This document shows, piece by piece, positions 2,964 through 31,113 of a stretch of 37,522 nt of DNA. Source of the DNA: a virus (lineage: Duplodnaviria; Heunggongvirae; Uroviricota; Caudoviricetes); the IMG/VR virus record IMGVR_UViG_3300029068_000003. One strand, 5' to 3'. How positions within the stretch are numbered: position 1 is the first letter of the stretch; the number at the start of each line of letters is the position of its first letter. Below the pieces are notes generated by a model. The model saw only the letters and a list, made by a program, of their open reading frames with translations, was not told the DNA's origin and did not search any database. A program made the position numbers and the translations under genes.

Positions 2964-4042
2964 CAGAACGGATCCTCCTGTACTCTGGCTTTTTTCTTTT
3001 TCCGCGCGCCGGGGGCTTCGGGTTCAGGCAGATAAGCATCAGGTGGGCCGACACGGATTTCCGTCAGGGTGCCGTTCTGGTCCTGAGTAAACGTGACTTC
3101 CGAGACAAGCAGTTCGGTATTGTCGAAACCACAGACCGGATCGAAGACAATCACCCGCTGGTTGGGCTGCCACAGCGTACCGTTACCCTGTCGCCAGCCC
3201 TGCACCACATAGGTGGTTTCATCCGTCCGCGCCGCCCGTTGTCGGGCTTCAAAGTCAGCACGCGCAATACAGCCTGCCCCCGTAGCCTGCCCTGTCTGCC
3301 TGATATACATCGGACGGTAACGGGCAATAAATGCATCCTCTGTGCGGGCCCGCAGCGCGGTGGTGGTGGCCTCACCGAAATCATCGTCGTTTCCGGCACG
3401 CTGCCCCGCTACCTGGTAAACTGAAAACCGCTCCCGGATACTCTTCTCCGTATCACAGGAAAGGATGTTTTCCCCAAGTACCAGCGCGGTATGTGCCCGC
3501 GTTGAGCCAATACCACCAATCACCAGCCTGCCGTGCGGGTCGTCATAAGCCAGCGCCTGCTGCTGACCGAGTATTTTGTTGATCACCTCGATCACCGTTT
3601 CACCGTGATCAGGCTGGACATCCGGAATAACACCCGACGGCGCATCGCTGTTCACCACCTCAATGCCGAAAGGCGCAGCAAGCGCCTGCGCAATCTGTAC
3701 CAGCGATCGTCCGTTAAACTGTGTCGGTTCGGCTGCACAGTCAATCAGGTCAGCAGTCAGACTACGTCCGGCAATACCGGTGCTGACCGAACGGGCATCG
3801 TAATGAACGGGGGTCGCCTCCACCCAGCCGGTGATCACCAGCTCATCACCAATCAGCACTTCCACTTTTGAACCATTTTTAATGCGCGGCTGAAGCGTGG
3901 TGATACCCTCATCTCCCGGCCACTGGCGGGTGATCTCCACGCTGAAATCCCGCGCCAGCCGTTCAATACCGGCACCGATGCGCACCGATGTCCAGCCATT
4001 CCACTCCCGGCCATTTACCCGTAGCGTGACATTGTCGTTCAT
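2963..4042 (-). CDS. Baseplate hub / tail protein (Mu gp44, P2 gpD-like)
   Basis: 359 aa ORF, ATG start, directly downstream of the DNA circulation protein gene. Confidence 0.55.
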   Translation of the reverse strand: MNDNVTLRVNGREWNGWTSVRIGAGIERLARDFSVEITRQWPGDEGITTLQPRIKNGSKVEVLIGDELVITGWVEATPVHYDARSVSTGIAGRSLTADLIDCAAEPTQFNGRSLVQIAQALAAPFGIEVVNSDAPSGVIPDVQPDHGETVIEVINKILGQQQALAYDDPHGRLVIGGIGSTRAHTALVLGENILSCDTEKSIRERFSVYQVAGQRAGNDDDFGEATTTALRARTEDAFIARYRPMYIRQTGQATGAGCIARADFEARQRAARTDETTYVVQGWRQGNGTLWQPNQRVIVFDPVCGFDNTELLVSEVTFTQDQNGTLTEIRVGPPDAYLPEPEAPGARKKKKARVQEDPF

Positions 4043-5367
4043 TGCACTGGCACCTTCAGAGGGATCACCGGCACAAAGCCGGGATGCGTAATGGCATTAC
4101 GCCGGATAATGTCCGCGTCACGCGCCGCGTTATCAAACCAGGTCGCCGCCAGCACCAGCGCGGGTAAAACCTCATCCGGCGTGCGCTGAATGATCCGAGC
4201 AGACTGTTCAAGGCGCGTGTTGATATCCGCATTCAGATCTGCTTTCACCCGGCGCAGAGCCAGAAACAGCGCATCACTGGTTGTACGGGACAACTCCTTA
4301 TCAATTGCCGTATTCAGTGTGTCGCGAATGTCGGTCAGTTCTTCCCACGTTGGCAGGTCAACCGTGTTTTTTACCGCCGGTGCATTGTTCAGCACCGGAT
4401 GCGTGACGGCAGGCCAGCCGGAGCTCTGCGCGGGTGTTGTTGACTGCCCCACTGCGGCATTCTGCATCACCGCAGAAGTTGTTGGCGCAGGCAATCGGGT
4501 AACGGCATACGCCGCTTCGCTGATTGCAGTCGTACGAAGGGTGCTGGCAACCATGTTACGCTGCTGCGTCGCTGTGGCGGTGGTTTTACTGTCCGTTTTC
4601 CAGACGCCGCGCGGTTGCAAATCGCTGCCGAGGCTGACACAAGAAAGCGTTTTGATCATGGTGACCAGGTCGCTGGCGTTACCATAAAGGCGTTTCCCGG
4701 TACGCCACATTTTCTGCACCTGCTCAACGAAATTTTTGCCTGACGATGGCGGCGGCAGAAGTACCGAGATATCCCCCTGCAACAGCCTGGCGGCATCCGA
4801 TACGGCAGAATCCACCACTTTCATCGCATCAGAAACATACCCCAGCATTATGCTGGCATTACCGATAACGTCGTTCTGCACGAAATCCGCCACACCATCG
4901 ATACTGAAACCGCTGAAGCTGTCACTGATGCAGTCATCCAGTGCAGAACAGGATGACATCAGCGTCTGCGCCGTCGCCGCACCTGATGTGGGGTAAGAGA
5001 GTTCTCCTGCTTCGACAAACTTCAGGTCAAAGCGGACAATACGCCCTTCACTTTTCGATGTGCTGACCCGAACTTCCCCGTCAACACAGACTTTCAGCTC
5101 ACCATATGTCGGGTGGACAAGCGTGCCGGGACCTGGTTTATTCAGCGCTTCAATCAGGCGATCGCGCTGGTCAAAGCAGTCATCTCCCACCACATAAGCC
5201 GTGATGGACGGGCGAAAAGTGATTTTCCCCAGGTCTTCGGTATAGGGTTTGTCGCGGTTCGGGTATTCATGTGTTTCCACACGGCGACCGGTTCCCGCAC
5301 TTTCTTCTTCAACCTTAAACGGCACGCCGCGAAATGACGCGTCCTGAAGCCTGTCTTTCCACGTCAT
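4039..5367 (-). CDS. DNA circulation protein (Mu gp43/N-like)
   Basis: 442 aa ORF beginning MTWKDRLQDASFRGVPFKVEE, N-terminus typical of the Mu N family; located after the tape measure as in Mu-like tails. Confidence 0.6.
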   Translation of the reverse strand: MTWKDRLQDASFRGVPFKVEEESAGTGRRVETHEYPNRDKPYTEDLGKITFRPSITAYVVGDDCFDQRDRLIEALNKPGPGTLVHPTYGELKVCVDGEVRVSTSKSEGRIVRFDLKFVEAGELSYPTSGAATAQTLMSSCSALDDCISDSFSGFSIDGVADFVQNDVIGNASIMLGYVSDAMKVVDSAVSDAARLLQGDISVLLPPPSSGKNFVEQVQKMWRTGKRLYGNASDLVTMIKTLSCVSLGSDLQPRGVWKTDSKTTATATQQRNMVASTLRTTAISEAAYAVTRLPAPTTSAVMQNAAVGQSTTPAQSSGWPAVTHPVLNNAPAVKNTVDLPTWEELTDIRDTLNTAIDKELSRTTSDALFLALRRVKADLNADINTRLEQSARIIQRTPDEVLPALVLAATWFDNAARDADIIRRNAITHPGFVPVIPLKVPVQ

Positions 5368-5382
5368 ATATACTCCGAAAAT

Positions 5383-5408
5383 TAAAAAGCCACCTATTAG
5401 AAGGTGGC
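5383..5408 (-). terminator. Intrinsic terminator downstream of the moron gene
   Basis: Perfect 7-bp stem gccacct/aggtggc (5389-5395 / 5402-5408) with 6-nt loop, followed on the minus strand by a T-run (plus-strand A-run 5384-5388). Confidence 0.55.
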
Positions 5409-5428
5409 CTTGTAATGAATTTTATTAA

Positions 5429-5959
5429 TTAGCGAGTCAGAAACAACGAATCTTTATACTTTTGCTGTTGTTCATTTAAATACTTAGCTGTTTCATCGCT
5501 GGCAAATGGAAATATTACCGTATTTTTAGGCATGGTAATTTCTTTTTTGTCCAGCGTCAGAGTAAACATAGGAACATACTGAGCAGAGTAACGCACCGCA
5601 GAAACGAGCTCTAGTTTAGACTCTTCAATAACACTTAAATTATCTAGGCTAACTTTCTCTTCATCTTTTTTCTTTGACGCATTTAAAGTTTTTATTACTT
5701 TATTTAATTTCTCCTGAAAATCCTCCTTAAAGTTTTCAGGATTGCCGTCGACAACAAGAATCTGTTCACCCTGATTATCTGGAAAAATAATCTTTGCACT
5801 TATCAATTTATTTTCTTTATAAACATCACCAAGTTTTATGGCTCCTCCAGATAACTGAATAATATGTTCATCTTTAAAGGAGATGTTGCCAGAGATTATG
5901 AGAGATGAAAAAATAGCCGCTGCTCCAAGAATTACACTTGCTGTGATATAGCCTTTCAT
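5429..5959 (-). CDS. Moron-encoded secreted or membrane-anchored protein, function unknown
   Basis: 176 aa ORF, ATG start; N-terminal hydrophobic segment (ILGAAAIFSSLIISG); strongly AT-rich relative to flanking tail genes; own terminator; inserted between DNA circulation and tape measure genes. Confidence 0.55.
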   Translation of the reverse strand: MKGYITASVILGAAAIFSSLIISGNISFKDEHIIQLSGGAIKLGDVYKENKLISAKIIFPDNQGEQILVVDGNPENFKEDFQEKLNKVIKTLNASKKKDEEKVSLDNLSVIEESKLELVSAVRYSAQYVPMFTLTLDKKEITMPKNTVIFPFASDETAKYLNEQQQKYKDSLFLTR

Positions 5960-6050
5960 TTTTCGCCTATTAACATTTTTCTAAATGTGCATTAATTCTA
6001 TCACTCTATTTATGACTTACAACCAGCAATACCTGTGAGGGGAATCCTGG

Positions 6051-7883
6051 CTACCAAAATCGGGTATAGCCAACATCGTGATTTATATCAATGCCACTGG
6101 AGCGTGTTTCCGTAACCCGCATACCTGGTGGCATATTTATAAATGATACCTTGATCTCACCATCAACTTTTGGCGCGGTAGCTTTATTAATCATGAAGGG
6201 ATTCGGACCTGTGGCACCGGAGGCGTTGTTTGCCTGAGCCGGATCCACCTCCGGATAAGGAGTGTATCCCCGTGGCGGTATTCCCGTCCCATAAGCATCA
6301 TAAGCACCCGCGCCCCACTGCGCCGAGTTAATGGCATCGACCGTGTCACCGGAACTGTCGGTAAACCATTCAATAATCGGCTTCAGCTTATCCCACATAT
6401 CCTGAAACCACTTAACAACCGGTCCCCAGTTATTGATCACCATCCCCAGCGGCGACCAGGCAAAAACCTTCTTCAGAAGTTCCCAGCCAGCCTCAAAATA
6501 AGGACTAATGGTTTCCCAGAGCTTCTTAAAATAAGGTCCGACAACATCCCAGTTAGTGATAATTAATCCCGCAGCCAGGGCTATCGCCGTCGCAATCATG
6601 CCAATCGGCGTCATCGACATGATCCTGCTGACGATACTGATGGCACTGCCCACGCCCATCAATCCCAGTTTCAGAATCGCAAGACCGGCAGCAAGCCCGA
6701 CGACGCCGCGAATAACCCGGGGATTTTCATCCGCAAACTTCGTGAATTTTTCCCCTAACTCCCCCAGCCATTGCGTGATATTTTTGGCGTCACCAGAAAA
6801 TGCGCCGCCAATAGCCGCAAGGCCGTTAGTTGCGGTCCCCGTCATTGCCTCCCACAGGTTGGACAGCGTACCAAGCTGGGCCTGAACACGTTTATTCAGG
6901 CTGGCCTGTTTATTCATCTTCTGCTGGATCTGATCGTAACCATCCTTTCCTTTATCGATCAGAGCATTGACCACCTGAAGGGTTTCGGCATCATCACCAA
7001 ATATTGCCTTAAGTACACCGGTTCGCTTAACGTCGGTCAGTTTTCGCAGCTTTGCCAGTTGCCTGAACATGTTATCAAGACCGCCAAAACTCCCTTTGCC
7101 GTCAGTAAAATCGAGCTGTACCCCGAGTTTCTGGCGGGCCATAACTTTATTAACGCCCCTGATTTTCTTAACGCTTAATCCGGACTGGATAACTTTTCGC
7201 AGGGCATTACCTGCCGACTCCCCGTTCATCCCCATCTGATCCATCATGACGCTGATGGGGGCAAGGCTCTGTGCAGCCTGAAGACCGTCCTTGTTCACCA
7301 TCTTCAGAACAGAACTGGTTTTAGTGAAGAAGGACAACATGTTGGTATCGTCAACGCCCAGATAAAACGCCTTCTGGATAGTGTCGAACAGCCCCATCAT
7401 GTCTTCTGACGCCGTTCCGGTAGCATCCTGCATCTTTGCAGCAAACTCAGCAGCCGCTTCCGGTGTTTTTTTCAGTTGTACCGCAAGATAAGCTGTCGCT
7501 TTACCCACACCGCCAAGAATATTTTCTGCCGGGATCCCCTGACGCACCAGCATCTGCATCATGTTCTGGAAATCAGCCGTTGTACCGGGTAGCTGGTTAC
7601 CCAGGCCAATAGCCAGTTTATTGATGTCCTGAAAGCTCTTTCCGACCTCGCCGTTCGCATCCATCATGGCGACTTTCAGCCCGGTGGCGGCGTTTTCCTG
7701 ATCGGCATAAGATTTCAGGGAAAGCGTCAGACCCGCTGCCAGTCCGCCACCAAGCGCCAGCCCACCCTGTGATGCTTCTTCCGCCTGGCGTTTAAATCCC
7801 CGGATTTTCTTTTGCATTTTCGACAGCGCGGGAGAAAGTCTGTCGACACCGGTGATCAACGCCTTAAGCTCAAATTCAGCCAT
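6051..7883 (-). CDS. Tail tape measure protein
   Basis: 610 aa ORF, ATG start, Ala/Gly/Leu-rich with hydrophobic stretches; between tail chaperone and baseplate genes. Confidence 0.7.
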   Translation of the reverse strand: MAEFELKALITGVDRLSPALSKMQKKIRGFKRQAEEASQGGLALGGGLAAGLTLSLKSYADQENAATGLKVAMMDANGEVGKSFQDINKLAIGLGNQLPGTTADFQNMMQMLVRQGIPAENILGGVGKATAYLAVQLKKTPEAAAEFAAKMQDATGTASEDMMGLFDTIQKAFYLGVDDTNMLSFFTKTSSVLKMVNKDGLQAAQSLAPISVMMDQMGMNGESAGNALRKVIQSGLSVKKIRGVNKVMARQKLGVQLDFTDGKGSFGGLDNMFRQLAKLRKLTDVKRTGVLKAIFGDDAETLQVVNALIDKGKDGYDQIQQKMNKQASLNKRVQAQLGTLSNLWEAMTGTATNGLAAIGGAFSGDAKNITQWLGELGEKFTKFADENPRVIRGVVGLAAGLAILKLGLMGVGSAISIVSRIMSMTPIGMIATAIALAAGLIITNWDVVGPYFKKLWETISPYFEAGWELLKKVFAWSPLGMVINNWGPVVKWFQDMWDKLKPIIEWFTDSSGDTVDAINSAQWGAGAYDAYGTGIPPRGYTPYPEVDPAQANNASGATGPNPFMINKATAPKVDGEIKVSFINMPPGMRVTETRSSGIDINHDVGYTRFW

Positions 7884-18463: not shown

Positions 18464-18799
18464 ATGAATAGTTATGAATGGGAATGGCTTTTAAACAAAG
18501 ATGACACCCTATGCTTTTTCCCCGTAGGCCATTCTGTAGAAGGTAATTACAAAATTCACTTTGAGTTGAGCGGTAGTTGTAACCTTAGAGTCTCAGATGC
18601 TGAATGGCATGGTAAACCTGTACTGCTGTTCGAATACTTCGATGAAGATGATGACCGCCCTGCAATAATCGAAATATTAGAAACAACCACTACAACTGTG
18701 GAGGCGATGATCGCACATCTGAATAGTATCGATAGTATTTACCATGAACCGATTTACAAAGCGGTTTACGAGTGGGCCGTAAAGTTTTTCTATCGATGA
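18464..18799 (+). CDS. Hypothetical acidic protein (cassette gene 1)
   Basis: AT-rich plus-strand ORF opposite to the flanking late genes; AGGAG 7 nt upstream of ATG 18464 (track ATG 18446 lacks an SD); acidic tract EYFDEDDDRP; no recognisable domain. Confidence 0.5.
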   Translation: MNSYEWEWLLNKDDTLCFFPVGHSVEGNYKIHFELSGSCNLRVSDAEWHGKPVLLFEYFDEDDDRPAIIEILETTTTTVEAMIAHLNSIDSIYHEPIYKAVYEWAVKFFYR

Positions 18800-18842: not shown

Positions 18843-19469
18843 ATGACATGCCAGCACAATACTGTCACTTACAACCGTTCGGATTACCTAGAGAAAAGTA
18901 TGATTCAGGATTTACTGATCGAAGCAATTAGTCACGATAGGATGCATAAAAAGTTAAATGAACTGAATTGCTACTTCTACAATCGCAAACATGAAACTCA
19001 AATACGTGATGAGTTAGTTGTTATTCTCAATCAAATCAGCACACTAACTGCTTTAAGTGAGCATCCAAAACTCGGTATCGGCGCTGTTGACATATCACTT
19101 TATAACCAGTCGATATTAACGTCTGAACATAATGGCAATGTTGCAACCATCGAGATCAAACACCATTACCCAAAGGATTTACTTTATCGGCAAGTTCAAG
19201 AAGACATCATTTTCGATATTTCAAGAGTAATAGTTTCACCAACTACACATTTTATCCATATAATCCAGCAAAGAACTAGGATTAATACTCCTTCTTTTGG
19301 CCAAGTGAAATTCCTTGAACGTGATGCAAGTGATATCAGCACTTATGTGCAATGCCTTGAAGAGCTAAGTTCCTTCCCCAGTATCTTTCATAAAAAAAGT
19401 ATATGTATTGAGGTACTTGGTGAAATTATGTCGACATATACCTTTAACGTATATTCATTTGACAACTGA
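18843..19469 (+). CDS. Hypothetical protein (cassette gene 2)
   Basis: 208 aa AT-rich ORF co-oriented with gene 1; alternative in-frame ATG at 18900; no recognisable domain. Confidence 0.45.
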   Translation: MTCQHNTVTYNRSDYLEKSMIQDLLIEAISHDRMHKKLNELNCYFYNRKHETQIRDELVVILNQISTLTALSEHPKLGIGAVDISLYNQSILTSEHNGNVATIEIKHHYPKDLLYRQVQEDIIFDISRVIVSPTTHFIHIIQQRTRINTPSFGQVKFLERDASDISTYVQCLEELSSFPSIFHKKSICIEVLGEIMSTYTFNVYSFDN

Positions 19470-21145: not shown

Positions 21146-21667
21146 ATGATGAACAAATTAGCACGCTTATTATTAACAGCAAGCTCAATTGCACCTGTTT
21201 GCGCAACTCTATTTTTTATTGGATATGTAAAAGATACGGTTTGGCTGATGCAATATAGCTTATGCGTTGGCATAGCAAGTTGGTTATTAGCAATAGGCCT
21301 GATTCAATATGCTGAGAAACAACTTGAACCTCTGACAAAAAATATTAGTTCAGTTTCTCCCGCTAACAAAGAAGTAACTAATTATTTCTTAAGCTATTTA
21401 TTCCCTCTCCTAGGAACAGACTCTATTGCTGAAAATAAAGCATATGCGTTATTCTTTTATTTGTCATTGTTATTTTACATCAGCTTTTCCGAGAACTATA
21501 ACTTTAACCCAGTATTGTCACTTATCGGTTATAAATTTTACGAAGCTGAAGATGACACCGGCGTAGGTTTTGTATTGATTTCTAAATCAGTCATTACTGA
21601 TATTAAAGATATCAAATTTACAGTTATTCAATTAACAGACTACACATTTCTACATGTTAAAGGATAA
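21146..21667 (+). CDS. Small integral membrane protein with about 4 TM helices (KwaA-like architecture, unverified)
   Basis: 173 aa AT-rich ORF with hydrophobic segments (LLLTASSIAPVCATLFFIGYV; WLMQYSLCVGIASWLLAIGLIQYA; YALFFYLSLLFYISF); opposite strand to flanking Q and lysis genes. Confidence 0.55.
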   Translation: MMNKLARLLLTASSIAPVCATLFFIGYVKDTVWLMQYSLCVGIASWLLAIGLIQYAEKQLEPLTKNISSVSPANKEVTNYFLSYLFPLLGTDSIAENKAYALFFYLSLLFYISFSENYNFNPVLSLIGYKFYEAEDDTGVGFVLISKSVITDIKDIKFTVIQLTDYTFLHVKG

Positions 21668-21672
21668 TAACC

Positions 21673-22557
21673 ATGGCACTTTTTGCAGTAATAGATAATA
21701 CAATTGCAACGAGAATTGTTAGAGTCGAACTTGATGCAACAGCAAGTACTTCTGTTACGGCCATTTTCCAACAACAGCGTCAATATTTTGAAAGTCATCA
21801 TAACAATATGATACCATTCTATGCCGGTTATACACCAAAACATAGTGAGTGTTTTGAAATACAAAACTTTACTGATTCTGCACGCCTGATTGACGCAGTC
21901 AATAGGCCTACCGCCGTGCCTGTCTGGGATCCCAGCCAAATTGATATTGGTTATATTAAAGCATTATTTGTTGGTGTTGACGCGCCAGCAAACCCCAATA
22001 TTATTGCGCTACAAACCTTCAACAAAAAACAAATCTTAGATACCTCAAAATCATTCTTTGGAAAGCTTTTTGCAAGCAAAACTACCTTTAGTAAAGCTAA
22101 TAGCATCGGTTTTAATGTTGATGATAAACTAGTTGCAATAATTATCAATGATACAATACGATTTAAGAGTTTCTTTAATCTAAGAAGCATTTTTGACATG
22201 TCGTCCTATTTTTCTGCTGCTACTGACCAAGAACTTAATGCATTTAGTCAACTTAGTGTATTTTCTACTCCCCAAGGTTTTGATCTAAAATCCGTTGCAG
22301 ATACAGTGATAAGAAATAAAGTAACACTAATAAATCAGACTGGGATGCTAACACCCCAAAATATGTCAAAGTTTAAATCCGAAGCTGCTAAAGTCAATTT
22401 CCCCTTACAAACCATAATAGTTGGCGGTGTTGAGAAAATTGTCATGCCTTCATCAAAAAAAGAAATAAAAGCCCTTCTTGACTTTCTTGAGGAAGACATT
22501 TGGATTTCAGGGATAAGTGGAAGACGCTTTAAATCGAATTCAAAGCGCCCAATATAA
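21673..22557 (+). CDS. Soluble partner protein of the membrane protein (KwaB-like size, unverified)
   Basis: 294 aa AT-rich ORF starting 5 nt after the upstream stop, with an SD overlapping the upstream gene end (operon); no recognisable catalytic motif. Confidence 0.55.
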   Translation: MALFAVIDNTIATRIVRVELDATASTSVTAIFQQQRQYFESHHNNMIPFYAGYTPKHSECFEIQNFTDSARLIDAVNRPTAVPVWDPSQIDIGYIKALFVGVDAPANPNIIALQTFNKKQILDTSKSFFGKLFASKTTFSKANSIGFNVDDKLVAIIINDTIRFKSFFNLRSIFDMSSYFSAATDQELNAFSQLSVFSTPQGFDLKSVADTVIRNKVTLINQTGMLTPQNMSKFKSEAAKVNFPLQTIIVGGVEKIVMPSSKKEIKALLDFLEEDIWISGISGRRFKSNSKRPI

Positions 22558-29422: not shown

Positions 29423-29669
29423 GACCTCTCTTCTCTAACTAAGGCACCGAACTAAGAAAAGTTTGGTGTTTTCTCTTGCCATAACAACTAAGTTAAGTTA
29501 GATTTTATATCAAAGATAACGAACAGGCAGGACGCCCACGAAGTAGCCGCCTGGGGCATATGAAGTCCAGGATGATTCGTTAGCAACAAAAAAGCGCCCT
29601 ACAGGACGCTTAGCTCTTTAACAATCTGGTCCCCATCAACAAGTAACTGATAACTTGAGGAGGTGTGAA
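29423..29669 (+). promoter_or_regulatory. Candidate OL/pL region
   Basis: Repeated ACTAAG half-sites, including the same AACTAAGTT palindrome (29486-29494) found in OR; GAGGAGG Shine-Dalgarno for the downstream ORF. Confidence 0.4.
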
Positions 29670-29876
29670 ATGCACAAAACAGAACCAAAAATCGTCGCGC
29701 CCGGATACACAAATGAGGAAATTTACGAGTGGATGGCAAAGAAGCTGGCAGCTATAAACCAGCTTCGTGAAGTGCTGTCTTATCGACAGGAAACAATAGA
29801 CTCCTTAAAAAAACTGGATCAGGAAATCACGGTTTTATCACAGGATGTTACTTTAGATATTGTGCAGACAAATTAG
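29670..29876 (+). CDS. Small early-left protein, function unknown
   Basis: ORF-track start is TTG at 29655; ATG at 29670 lies 6 nt after GAGGAGG; 68 aa. Confidence 0.45.
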   Translation: MHKTEPKIVAPGYTNEEIYEWMAKKLAAINQLREVLSYRQETIDSLKKLDQEITVLSQDVTLDIVQTN

Positions 29877-30282
29877 GATCCCATTCATTTTCGTCAAAAT
29901 CATCAAAGTGATGAATTTGTGATCTCCAGTCTCGATAATCTAAAAATTTCTGGGCGGTTACGCTTATTTTATCAAGTGTGAGTTCATCCTGAATTGAAAG
30001 AAGAAGTTCATCAAATTTCATCTCATTAATCTGTTTTGGCATCCAGTGATGCTTCATCAGAATAAGGTGAACCAGAGCCTTTTTCCCATTCAACTGATTA
30101 TAGGGAGTGCCGAATTTCTTCCGGTGCTCATGTAAGACAAGGTCCAGAAGAGTAAGTAATGTTGCCCTTGATTCAACTTTGCTTATTTCGACTGATGACA
30201 CTACCCCACTGATTTCAATGCCCCGATACTTTCCAACATTTTCACAGTGGGATTTGTACAGCGTATAGATATTACCGGACAT
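29848..30282 (-). CDS. Hypothetical protein encoded antisense to the early-left operon (moron candidate)
   Basis: 144 aa AT-rich ORF, ATG start, convergent with and overlapping the 3' end of 29670..29876; direct repeats upstream; no recognisable domain. Confidence 0.45.
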   Translation of the reverse strand: MSGNIYTLYKSHCENVGKYRGIEISGVVSSVEISKVESRATLLTLLDLVLHEHRKKFGTPYNQLNGKKALVHLILMKHHWMPKQINEMKFDELLLSIQDELTLDKISVTAQKFLDYRDWRSQIHHFDDFDENEWDPNLSAQYLK

Positions 30283-30297
30283 TTCTTTTCCTTTTGC

Positions 30298-30349
30298 GTT
30301 GTTGGGGATAACCAGATTAACCGAATCCTTGTTGTTGGGGAATAACCAG
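30298..30349. repeat. Direct repeat pair upstream of the antisense gene (candidate regulator binding sites)
   Basis: gttgttggggataaccag (30298-30315) and gttgttggggaataaccag (30331-30349). Confidence 0.5.
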
Positions 30350-30549
30350 GTCCACCTCGCCTGATGTGGCTAAAAGCAGGCACATAACAGCTAAGTATTT
30401 TCAACCAGAGAGAATTCTTAGCGTTGTGGTGAATGCGGCTCAGCGCACGCGGGTTAAGGTTGAGGCTGACAGTCGACCTTCTGTGGATACCCACCCGCCT
30501 GGTGTGCAACCTTCGCCAGGCACCGGGAGGCACCCGGCACCACAACTTT

Positions 30550-30613
30550 ATGCTGTGTGTAGTCTTGGCGGTACCAGTTTGTACTCTTGCTTCCGGCTGG
30601 TACCGTCCTTTTT
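30550..30613 (+). ncRNA. Candidate small RNA with intrinsic terminator (possible DicF-like sRNA)
   Basis: 9-bp stem cggtaccag/ctggtaccg (30569-30577 / 30597-30605) followed by tcc + TTTTT (30609-30613); 5' arm uggcgguaccaguuuguacuc resembles the DicF seed region as recalled from memory only. Confidence 0.3.
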
Positions 30614-30702
30614 ACAAAACAGAGAAGAGCATCACCGGACGACGGGCTCATAACCCAATCCATCCGGGCGGCTGCCACCGCAGGTGTTCTTCTCTGTTTT
30701 GT
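30614..30702. repeat. Long inverted repeat (15-bp arms, 59-nt spacer) upstream of the YfdP-like gene
   Basis: acaaaacagagaaga (30614-30628) and tcttctctgttttgt (30688-30702) are exact reverse complements. Confidence 0.55.
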
Positions 30703-30750
30703 GGAGAAACTAATCGGCCTTGCAGGGTCGATATGATGAGGAGCAGCAAA

Positions 30751-31113
30751 ATGGCTAGCGAACGCAGTACTGATGTGCAGGCATTTATCGGGGAGCTGGA
30801 CGGCGGCGTATTTGAAACCAAAATCGGCGCAGTTCTCAGTGAAGTCGCTTCCGGTGTGATGAACACGAAAACCAAAGGGAAGGTCTCACTCAATCTGGAA
30901 ATCGAACCGTTTGATGAGAACCGTGTGAAAATCAAACACAAACTCTCATATGTTCGCCCAACTAACCGCGGGAAAATTTCCGAAGAAGACACCACCGAAA
31001 CGCCGATGTATGTCAATCGCGGTGGTCGCCTGACTATTCTGCAGGAAGACCAGGGACAATTACTGACTCTTGCCGGTGAACCTGACGGAAAACTCCGCGC
31101 AGCAGGTCGTTAA
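30751..31113 (+). CDS. YfdP-like prophage protein
   Basis: 120 aa from ATG 30751 (GAGGAG 7 nt upstream); the longer track ORF from 30433 runs through the structured region and is unlikely. Confidence 0.45.
   Translation: MASERSTDVQAFIGELDGGVFETKIGAVLSEVASGVMNTKTKGKVSLNLEIEPFDENRVKIKHKLSYVRPTNRGKISEEDTTETPMYVNRGGRLTILQEDQGQLLTLAGEPDGKLRAAGR

What the first reader, a model, noticed from the sequence alone, without database searches (positions are those of the whole stretch)
5383..6050. Self-contained moron (promoter-gene-terminator) inserted inside the tail gene cluster
Between the tape measure and DNA circulation genes lies a 176 aa ORF with an N-terminal signal/anchor segment, far more AT-rich than its neighbours, followed by a perfect hairpin terminator and preceded by about 90 bp of AT-rich DNA. 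Morons at such sites often encode lysogenic-conversion, exclusion or defence functions expressed from the prophage.
Basis: seen in the sequence. Interest (0 to 1): 0.5.

Follow-up and report, generated by a model that had tools for sequence, protein, structure and literature searches.

The report
Swappable accessory gene inside prophage tail operon
A small AT-rich gene for a membrane-anchored protein of unknown function, with its own stop signal and probable start signal, sits in a slot between two tail genes of an E. coli prophage where related phages carry other small exported proteins or nothing, so it is an ordinary phage "moron" whose most likely job is blocking infection by rival phages.

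Summary
A 176-aa ORF (5429-5959, minus strand) lies between the tape measure and DNA-circularization genes. It has 34% GC against 52-56% in the flanks, 91 bp of AT-rich leader upstream, and a strong hairpin plus T-run downstream.

The window is an intact SfV/e14-like prophage at icd. Phages SfV, SfI and SfII share 97% identical tail DNA but have an empty slot. Other relatives carry unrelated cassettes there, so the gene is accessory, not structural.

The protein belongs to phrog_5485. It has no Pfam, NCBIfam or PADLOC match. It is under purifying selection (pN/pS 0.17). It has an N-terminal membrane helix and a confidently predicted domain (pLDDT 92) with no solved structural relative.

Homologs at 30-59% identity occupy the same slot in diverged tail modules of other Enterobacterales, always AT-rich and always followed by a terminator. 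One copy survives alone in a decayed Lelliottia prophage.

Four of the five cargo families at this slot are exported proteins, and one is annotated Sie-like. The best reading is a prophage-expressed envelope protein, most likely for superinfection exclusion. That function is inferred, not shown. It is a new member of a known kind, of moderate interest.

The parts
5378..6056 (-). Variable cassette (moron). It covers everything between the last 2-3 codons of the tape measure gene and the ribosome-binding site of the DNA-circularization gene.
   Evidence: Compared with the empty site (L001, SfII) and with the alternative cassettes (L002-L004, L012, L013), similarity stops at the tape measure 3' end and resumes at cGGAGTxTATATG. 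GC is about 0.34.
5995..6022 (-). Promoter-like site: -35 TTGTAA, 16-nt spacer, extended -10 TGaTAGAAT. The -10 ends 35 nt before the ATG.
   Evidence: Found by the consensus scan. 2.4% of shuffles reach this score at this distance. Comparable sites occur in L094, L183, L009, L010 and L185, but not in L005, L015 or L181. Function is not shown.
5429..5959 (-). 176-aa ORF, family phrog_5485, of unknown function.
   Evidence: phrog_5485, E 3.8e-108. No Pfam, NCBIfam or PADLOC match. pN/pS is 0.17 (14 synonymous, 9 nonsynonymous, no stops in 75 copies; p = 3.7e-5). AlphaFold2 gives pLDDT 92.
5891..5956 (-). Codons for residues 2-23: an N-terminal membrane helix (signal anchor, or a long signal peptide).
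   Evidence: Hydropathy up to 2.1 over 19-residue windows. The helix at 2-23 appears in the model. A hydrophobic N-terminus is present in the displayed rows of the 57-member family alignment.
5378..5411 (-). Intrinsic terminator: stem-loop at 5411-5386 followed by a T-run. It ends 2-3 nt before the GGAG (5376-5373) of the DNA-circularization gene.
   Evidence: Fold energy is -17 kcal/mol, z = -5.7. A hairpin plus T-run with a different stem sequence sits at the same place in L005, L009, L010, L015 and L094, and hairpin-plus-T-run sequences are also seen in L183 and L185.
6051..7883 (-). Upstream flank: tail tape measure gene (610 aa).
   Evidence: PF10145, E 1.2e-26; phrog_28.
4039..5367 (-). 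Downstream flank: DNA-circularization / baseplate hub gene (Mu gpN-like, 442 aa).
   Evidence: PF07157, E 8.4e-34; phrog_184.

Best explanation
The segment is a self-contained accessory cassette (a moron). It occupies an exchange hotspot between the tape measure gene and the DNA-circularization gene of an SfV/e14-like prophage with a Mu-type contractile tail, integrated at icd.

It encodes a small protein held in the inner membrane by an N-terminal helix. A roughly 150-residue domain, built from two beta-beta-alpha repeats, faces the periplasm.

In the lysogen it would be transcribed from its own weak sigma-70 promoter. Its terminator would keep that transcript out of the downstream tail genes. 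During lytic growth, the Q-antiterminated late transcript would read through the terminator.

The most likely function is superinfection exclusion at the envelope: interference with tail-tip or tape-measure penetration of the inner membrane, or with DNA entry, by incoming phages, possibly relatives with the same tail type.

Shown: accessory status, cassette architecture, conservation and purifying selection, and the predicted fold. Predicted from sequence: the export signal. Inferred: the topology, expression from the prophage, and the exclusion function.

Rough sub-confidences: moron in a hotspot 0.9; envelope protein 0.85; expressed in the lysogen 0.6; exclusion function 0.35-0.4.
For: Accessory and swappable.
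- The flanks occur in 1096 of 5426 complete E. coli genomes, but the cargo occurs in only about 175.
- SfV, SfI and SfII share 97% identical tail DNA and have an empty slot.
- Among 76 IMG/VR loci whose circularization protein is at least 98% identical: 29 are empty, 23 carry this cargo, 22 carry phrog_8976, 1 carries bPH_1 and 1 holds an unclassified 84-bp segment.
- Other cassettes are an OB-fold protein on the opposite strand (L003) and phrog_5586 in phage 720R4.

A real gene. pN/pS is 0.17, with no stops in 75 copies. The profile search found 77 representative clusters at E <= 0.001, mostly 170-180 aa.

Same slot, same architecture, across diverged lineages. Homologs of 30-59% identity lie between the tape measure and circularization genes in Leclercia, Edwardsiella and metagenomic prophages. 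GC is 0.35-0.37 in every one and each is followed by a hairpin plus T-run.

Retention after prophage decay. In Lelliottia the gene stands alone beside icd, with only the last 31 codons of the tape measure gene upstream.

Envelope location. There is a hydrophobic N-terminus and a predicted membrane helix. The only significant fold match is a phage protein named "Lipoprotein" (Foldseek E 9e-7).

The slot favours exported proteins. Four of five cargo families have a membrane anchor or a Sec signal peptide. The OB-fold allele matches phrog_8545, "superinfection exclusion Sie-like", E 1.5e-49.

The prophage carries defence genes elsewhere. Kiwa (KwaA and KwaB) lies in the Q-holin slot.

Transcription signals.. 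A Q-family antiterminator is annotated in the identical RefSeq prophage.

Precedent. The HK97 gp15 moron lies in a tail operon next to the tape measure gene. It is an inner-membrane protein that blocks phage entry (PMC3594210).
Against: - There is no expression or phenotype data of any kind.
- The protein has no sequence similarity to any annotated exclusion or defence family.
- The first promoter scan found no more sites than shuffles give. Three of nine homologous cassettes lack a promoter-like site.
- In L185 and L183 the gap after the tape measure gene is only about 26-34 nt. There the gene looks like part of the late operon.
- Cargo identity falls roughly in step with tail-module identity. 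That would also fit a non-essential gene with a lytic-cycle role tied to this tail type.
- The "Sie-like" label of phrog_8545 is an annotation, not a tested function.
- Whether the N-terminus is cleaved cannot be decided here.
Confidence: 0.45

Rival explanations
1. It is a lysogenic-conversion or host-fitness factor of the envelope, unrelated to phage exclusion. Examples would be protection against colicins, type VI or contact-dependent toxins, serum or envelope stress, or a change in a host membrane process.
For: It is an exported, membrane-anchored small protein with no enzyme-like motif. The conserved positions are G39, L43, G44, E49, Y124 and L134. It is retained alone after prophage decay in Lelliottia, which suggests a benefit to the host. 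Distant homologs lie in small integrative islands without tail genes, next to another secreted protein.
Against: The tight association with one slot of one tail-module lineage, down to 30% identity, is not expected for a general host-fitness gene. One allelic cargo is annotated Sie-like. The protein has no lipobox and no similarity to the annotated PHROG families, such as those for Bor/Lom-type proteins.
Confidence: 0.25
2. It is a non-essential lytic-cycle gene of the late operon. It would be made with the tail proteins and act in the periplasm late in infection, for example to block superinfection, to stop DNA ejection into the dying cell, or to tune lysis. It would not be a prophage-expressed moron.
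For: The gene is co-oriented with the late operon and lies downstream of a Q-family antiterminator. The gap after the tape measure gene is very short in L185 and L183. No promoter-like site is found in L005, L015 or L181. Cargo identity tracks tail-module identity.
Against: Every homologous cassette keeps its own terminator, which has no role for a purely late gene. Promoter-like sites at a fixed distance occur in 6 of 9 lineages. The gene survives intact in a remnant with no late operon. Its composition stays foreign.
Confidence: 0.17
3. It is a structural or assembly component of the tail.
For: Its position between two tail genes is conserved in several genera.
Against: SfV, SfI and SfII lack it, as do isolated phages SKA5 and 720R4, which carry unrelated genes there. 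It carries an export signal. It differs in composition. It has its own terminator.
Confidence: 0.03
4. It is a non-functional hitch-hiking ORF, or spacer DNA.
For: It matches no known family.
Against: pN/pS is 0.17 with no stops in 75 copies. Full-length homologs reach down to about 20% identity. The predicted fold is confident.
Confidence: 0.02

Closest known systems
HK97 gene 15 moron (gp15 superinfection exclusion protein)
   Same: It is an independent cassette inside a tail operon, next to the tape measure gene. Its GC content is foreign and it has its own promoter and terminator. It encodes a small inner-membrane protein. It blocks entry of related phages in a way that depends on the incoming tail (PMC3594210).
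   Different: The proteins are very different in size. HK97 is a siphovirus, and its slot lies between the chaperone and tape measure genes. Here the slot lies between the tape measure and gpN-like genes of a contractile tail. The function of this protein is untested.
[quoted passage not shown] 2022; PMC13586616)
   Same: There is a fixed slot between conserved core genes where unrelated cassettes replace one another among near-identical elements, presumably by recombination in the flanks.
   Different: The cargos here are single small exported proteins. None matches a known defence system in PADLOC. I found no published description of this slot, which lies inside the tail operon of SfV/e14-like phages.
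Membrane superinfection-exclusion proteins (P22 SieA, T4 Imm, P1 Sim) and phrog_8545 'Sie-like'
   Same: Predicted envelope location, a prophage or moron context, and no enzymatic motif. An allelic cassette at the same slot matches phrog_8545.
   Different: No sequence relationship to this protein. Blocking of DNA entry has not been tested.
Pseudomonas phage ventosus 'Lipoprotein' (UniProt A0A2H4P829)
   Same: It is the only significant structural match: Foldseek E 9e-7, TM-score 0.56/0.66. It is phage-encoded and its name indicates an envelope location.
   Different: Sequence identity is 16%. It is presumably lipid-anchored rather than held by a helix. Its function is also unknown.

Membership tests
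Moron (Juhala/Hendrix sense) | Extra DNA that is absent from closely related phage genomes | tested here: met
   The slot is empty in SfV, SfI and SfII (97% identical tail DNA) and in 29 of 76 close IMG/VR relatives.
Moron (Juhala/Hendrix sense) | Nucleotide composition different from the surrounding genes | tested here: met
   GC is 0.34 against 0.52-0.56. The same contrast is seen in all homologous loci examined.
Moron (Juhala/Hendrix sense) | Own transcription terminator | tested here: met
   Hairpin plus T-run, -17 kcal/mol, z = -5.7. It is conserved as a structure, with different stem sequences, in the homologs.
Moron (Juhala/Hendrix sense) | Own promoter | tested here: inconclusive
   The site is TTGTAA-16-TGaTAGAAT. 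The regional scan found no more sites than shuffles. A positional test gave p = 0.024 here, and similar sites occur in 6 of 9 diverged cassettes.
Moron (Juhala/Hendrix sense) | Expressed from the repressed prophage | not testable with these tools
   No transcriptome of a lysogen carrying this gene was found. The NC-SV data set concerns a different, lambda-like prophage.
Known superinfection-exclusion protein families | Sequence homology to an annotated Sie family | tested here: not met
   PHROGs gives only phrog_5485 and phrog_34391, both of unknown function. There is no similarity to the Sie-like OB-fold allele or the other cargos.
Known superinfection-exclusion protein families | Blocks DNA entry without blocking adsorption | not testable with these tools
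   This requires an experiment.
Known anti-phage defence systems (PADLOC-DB 2.0) | Match to a defence protein model | tested here: not met
   No hit at E <= 1.
Phage lipoprotein exclusion factors (Llp/Cor type) | Lipobox with an invariant cysteine after the signal peptide | tested here: not met
   The protein contains no cysteine.
Tail structural or assembly protein | Present in all functional phages that share the tail module | tested here: not met
   Absent from SfV, SfI and SfII. Replaced by unrelated genes in SKA5 and 720R4.

The most novel reading that the evidence does not exclude
phrog_5485 is a previously unrecognised class of injection-blocking protein that has co-evolved with Mu-type contractile tail modules. 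It would be a periplasm-facing, membrane-anchored binder of the incoming tape measure, gpN or hub complex. It would be kept genetically linked to the tape measure gene so that each tail lineage carries its matching exclusion factor. The slot between the tape measure and gpN-like genes would then be a dedicated envelope-immunity hotspot, whose other cargos (phrog_8976, phrog_5586 and the OB-fold phrog_8545) are alternative entry blockers.
Probability: 0.25. Interest if true: 0.6.

Novelty: new member of a known kind. Interest (0 to 1): 0.4.

Why it matters
SfV/e14-like prophages are present in about a fifth of complete E. coli genomes. About one in six of these records carries this gene.

If the slot does collect entry-blocking envelope proteins, it offers several compact, single-gene candidates for new superinfection-exclusion mechanisms against contractile-tailed phages. 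It would also offer a handle on how Mu-type tails cross the inner membrane.

This matters for phage therapy host range. It also matters for understanding why small morons survive when prophages decay.

The protein has a confidently predicted fold with no solved relative, so a structure or a binding partner would be new information.

Tried and rejected
- Pfam, NCBIfam and PADLOC on the protein and on 57 family members: nothing.
- PDB sequence profile search: nothing.
- The afdb50 Foldseek library was not available.
- tblastn against deposited phage genomes found no copy. The plasmid hits are prophage-like records, one of them a frameshifted copy.
- The search for related loci with the wide alignment failed for lack of conserved stretches. 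The genome scan returned a single locus.
- The alternative cargos (phrog_8976, phrog_5586) and the 180-aa neighbour in the Pseudomonas islands are not remote homologs of this family.
- No flanking direct or inverted repeats suggest transposition.
- Rfam: no RNA family anywhere in the window.
- Literature: the accession WP_000679479 appears nowhere. The svsR/NC-SV paper concerns a lambda-like siphovirus at icd and does not help. The SfIV and SfII papers describe other morons, not this slot. The original HK97 gp15 paper is not held.

Full report
**What is there.**
The region holds one ORF, 5429-5959 on the minus strand, 176 aa, co-oriented with the tail genes.
- Its GC content is 0.341 (GC3 0.294). 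The tape measure gene (6051-7883) is 0.515 and the DNA-circularization gene (4039-5367) is 0.558.
- It is the only stretch below 0.40 GC in the tail module.
- The 91-bp gap upstream has GC 0.352.
- Downstream, a 10-bp stem (one G.U pair) with a 6-nt loop and a T-run lies at 5411-5378. It ends just before the GGAG of the next gene. It folds at -17 kcal/mol, z = -5.7, and 0 of 200 shuffles fold as well.

**Context.**
The window is 100% identical to an intact prophage of E. coli OkiPb01675, integrated at icd, the e14 site. RefSeq annotates intE/xisE, a Q-family antiterminator, HK97-type head genes and a Mu-type contractile tail. Pfam confirms the sheath, tube, chaperone, tape measure, DNA_circ_N and gp44-like hub. 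The tail module is 97% identical in DNA to Shigella phages SfV, SfI and SfII.

**The slot is a cassette hotspot.**
- The flanks occur in 1096 of 5426 complete E. coli genomes. The cargo occurs in about 175.
- SfV, SfI and SfII, and many E. coli prophages, have an empty slot of about 60 bp. It still contains a hairpin plus T-run, which is annotated as a terminator in SfII.
- Other relatives carry unrelated cassettes:
  - a 125-aa bPH_1 protein (L002);
  - a 148-aa membrane-anchored OB-fold protein on the opposite strand (L003);
  - a 164/170-aa protein with a Sec signal peptide (L004 and phage SKA5);
  - a 162-aa protein with a Sec signal peptide (phage vB_EcoM-720R4).
- Among 76 IMG/VR loci whose circularization protein is at least 98% identical to the window's: 29 are empty; 23 carry this cargo (one of them with an added IS200-like transposase); 22 carry phrog_8976; 1 carries bPH_1; and 1 holds an unclassified 84-bp segment.
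- Divergence starts in the last codons of the tape measure gene and ends at the ribosome-binding site of the next gene. No flanking repeats are present. Exchange is therefore most simply explained by homologous recombination in the flanks; this is an inference.

**The protein family.**
- The protein matches phrog_5485 (E 3.8e-108, unknown function). It matches nothing in Pfam, NCBIfam or PADLOC. None of 57 family members matches a Pfam family meaningfully.
- It has been seen on at least 1000 contigs and is always named "hypothetical".
- A profile search of 1.8 billion representatives found 77 clusters, mostly full-length proteins of 170-180 aa.
- In 75 full-length E. coli copies there are 23 polymorphic sites, 14 synonymous and 9 nonsynonymous, and no stops. 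pN/pS is 0.17, p = 3.7e-5. It is a real gene under purifying selection.

**Distribution.**
- Homologs of 53-59% identity (Leclercia and metagenomes), 41% (Edwardsiella anguillarum) and 30-34% (metagenomes) lie in the same slot of related tail modules.
- The proteins of those modules have themselves diverged, down to 44% (circularization), 51% (hub) and 62% (sheath) identity.
- In every case the cargo has GC 0.35-0.37 against 0.50-0.60 in the flanks, and is followed by a hairpin plus T-run with a different stem sequence.
- Cargo identity falls roughly with tail identity. The family therefore looks like an old, fast-evolving and frequently lost resident of this slot, not a recent arrival.
- In Lelliottia amnigena the gene stands alone beside icd, with only the last 31 codons of the tape measure gene upstream and its terminator downstream. 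This is a decayed prophage that kept the moron.
- Distant members (about 23% identity, still matching phrog_5485 at E 4e-14) lie in small integrative islands of Pseudomonas and marine bacteria. Their neighbours are a resolvase, an Mrr-type nuclease, a primase-like gene and another secreted protein.

**Protein features.**
- Residues 2-23 form a hydrophobic helix after K2. The hydrophobic N-terminus is present in the displayed rows of the 57-member family alignment. This predicts a signal anchor with the C-terminal domain in the periplasm.
- Cleavage after the conserved Ser23 cannot be excluded. There is no cysteine, so it is not a lipoprotein.
- With the 57-sequence alignment, AlphaFold2 gives pLDDT 92 and pTM 0.77. 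The model has a short hairpin (33-42), then two beta-hairpin-plus-helix units (46-72 with 74-93, and 114-143 with 149-171).
- The only significant fold match is a protein named "Lipoprotein" from Pseudomonas phage ventosus (E 9e-7, TM-score 0.56/0.66).
- The conserved positions (G39, L43, G44, E49, Y124, L134) do not suggest an enzyme.

**Transcription signals.**
- A promoter-like site, TTGTAA-16-TGaTAGAAT, ends 35 nt before the ATG. The regional scan alone is not above chance.
- A positional test is more informative. It takes the best site ending 15-45 nt before the ATG and compares it with shuffles. It gives p = 0.024 here. Values for the diverged cassettes are 0.001, 0.017, 0.027, 0.07 and 0.09 in five cases, with no site in three others.
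- The terminator is solid. With a Q-family antiterminator in the phage, late transcription would be expected to read through it. This inference rests on established lambdoid biology.

**Function.**
Nothing here tests function. The exclusion hypothesis rests on six points:
- the envelope location;
- the moron architecture;
- retention after prophage decay;
- the fact that four of five cargo families at the slot are exported proteins, one of them matching phrog_8545 "superinfection exclusion Sie-like";
- a Kiwa defence system in another moron slot of the same prophage;
- the precedent of the HK97 gp15 moron, an inner-membrane entry blocker beside the tape measure gene.

Three observations cut the other way. 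The cargo co-diverges with the tail module. The upstream gaps are short in distant relatives. Some lineages lack a promoter-like site. These keep alive a role as a late-expressed accessory gene. A host-fitness role unrelated to phages also remains open.

**Verdict.**
This is an ordinary kind of object, a moron in a prophage hotspot. It carries an uncharacterised, structurally unassigned protein family with an unusually faithful link to one slot of the tail operon. It is a new member of a known kind, of moderate interest.

Noticed in passing
window 21146-21667 (+) and 21673-22557 (+): A Kiwa anti-phage system lies in the low-GC slot between the Q antiterminator and the holin: KwaA (PADLOC E 1.9e-83) and KwaB (E 2.3e-150).
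   Followed up: partly
window 18464-18799 (+) and 18900-19469 (+): Two low-GC hypothetical genes (111 and 189 aa) lie on the strand opposite the late genes, between the lysis cassette and the HNH/terminase genes. Neither has a PADLOC match. This is probably another moron slot.
   Followed up: partly
window about 29654-30867: An IS3-family transposase is inserted close to the LexA-family (cI-like) repressor gene of the prophage, according to the RefSeq annotation of the identical record.
   Followed up: no
L001 985-1035; SfII L011 2415-2453: The empty slot still carries a hairpin plus T-run (CCCACTCCGGTGGGATTTTTT). It is almost the same as the terminator of the bPH_1 cassette (GCCCACTTCGGTGGGCTTTTTT in L002). 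The empty state may therefore be a scar left by cargo loss.
   Followed up: partly
L009 7809-8580 (Lelliottia amnigena): A lone homolog (53% identity) sits 370 bp downstream of icd. The last 31 codons of a tape measure gene lie upstream and a terminator lies downstream. Everything else of the prophage is gone.
   Followed up: yes
L003 1079-1525 (+); L004 1059-1553 (-); L013 2507-2995 (-); L002 1032-1409 (-): Four alternative cargos occupy the same slot. The first is a membrane-anchored OB-fold protein (PF12869; phrog_8545 'Sie-like'). Two are unrelated proteins with Sec signal peptides (phrog_8976 and phrog_5586). The fourth is a bPH_1 protein (PF08000). None has a PADLOC match among the three tested, and phrog_5586 was not scanned.
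   Followed up: partly
L148 2421-2879 (+): In one IMG/VR relative, an IS200-like transposase gene (152 aa, identified by eye) is inserted between the cargo's terminator and the circularization gene.
   Followed up: no
L096 4434-7534; L100 5935-7531; L182 96-3254: Distant family members (about 23% identity) lie in small integrative islands. They sit next to a small resolvase gene. In L096 they are near an Mrr-type nuclease (PADLOC type IV restriction-like hits) and directly after another secreted 180-aa protein. L100 and L182 also carry a DUF5906 primase-like gene.
   Followed up: partly
all homologous cassettes (L005, L010, L015, L094, L183, L185): The cargo's GC content stays at 0.35-0.37 in lineages whose tail proteins have diverged to 44-62% identity. 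There is no sign of amelioration, and this is unexplained.
   Followed up: partly
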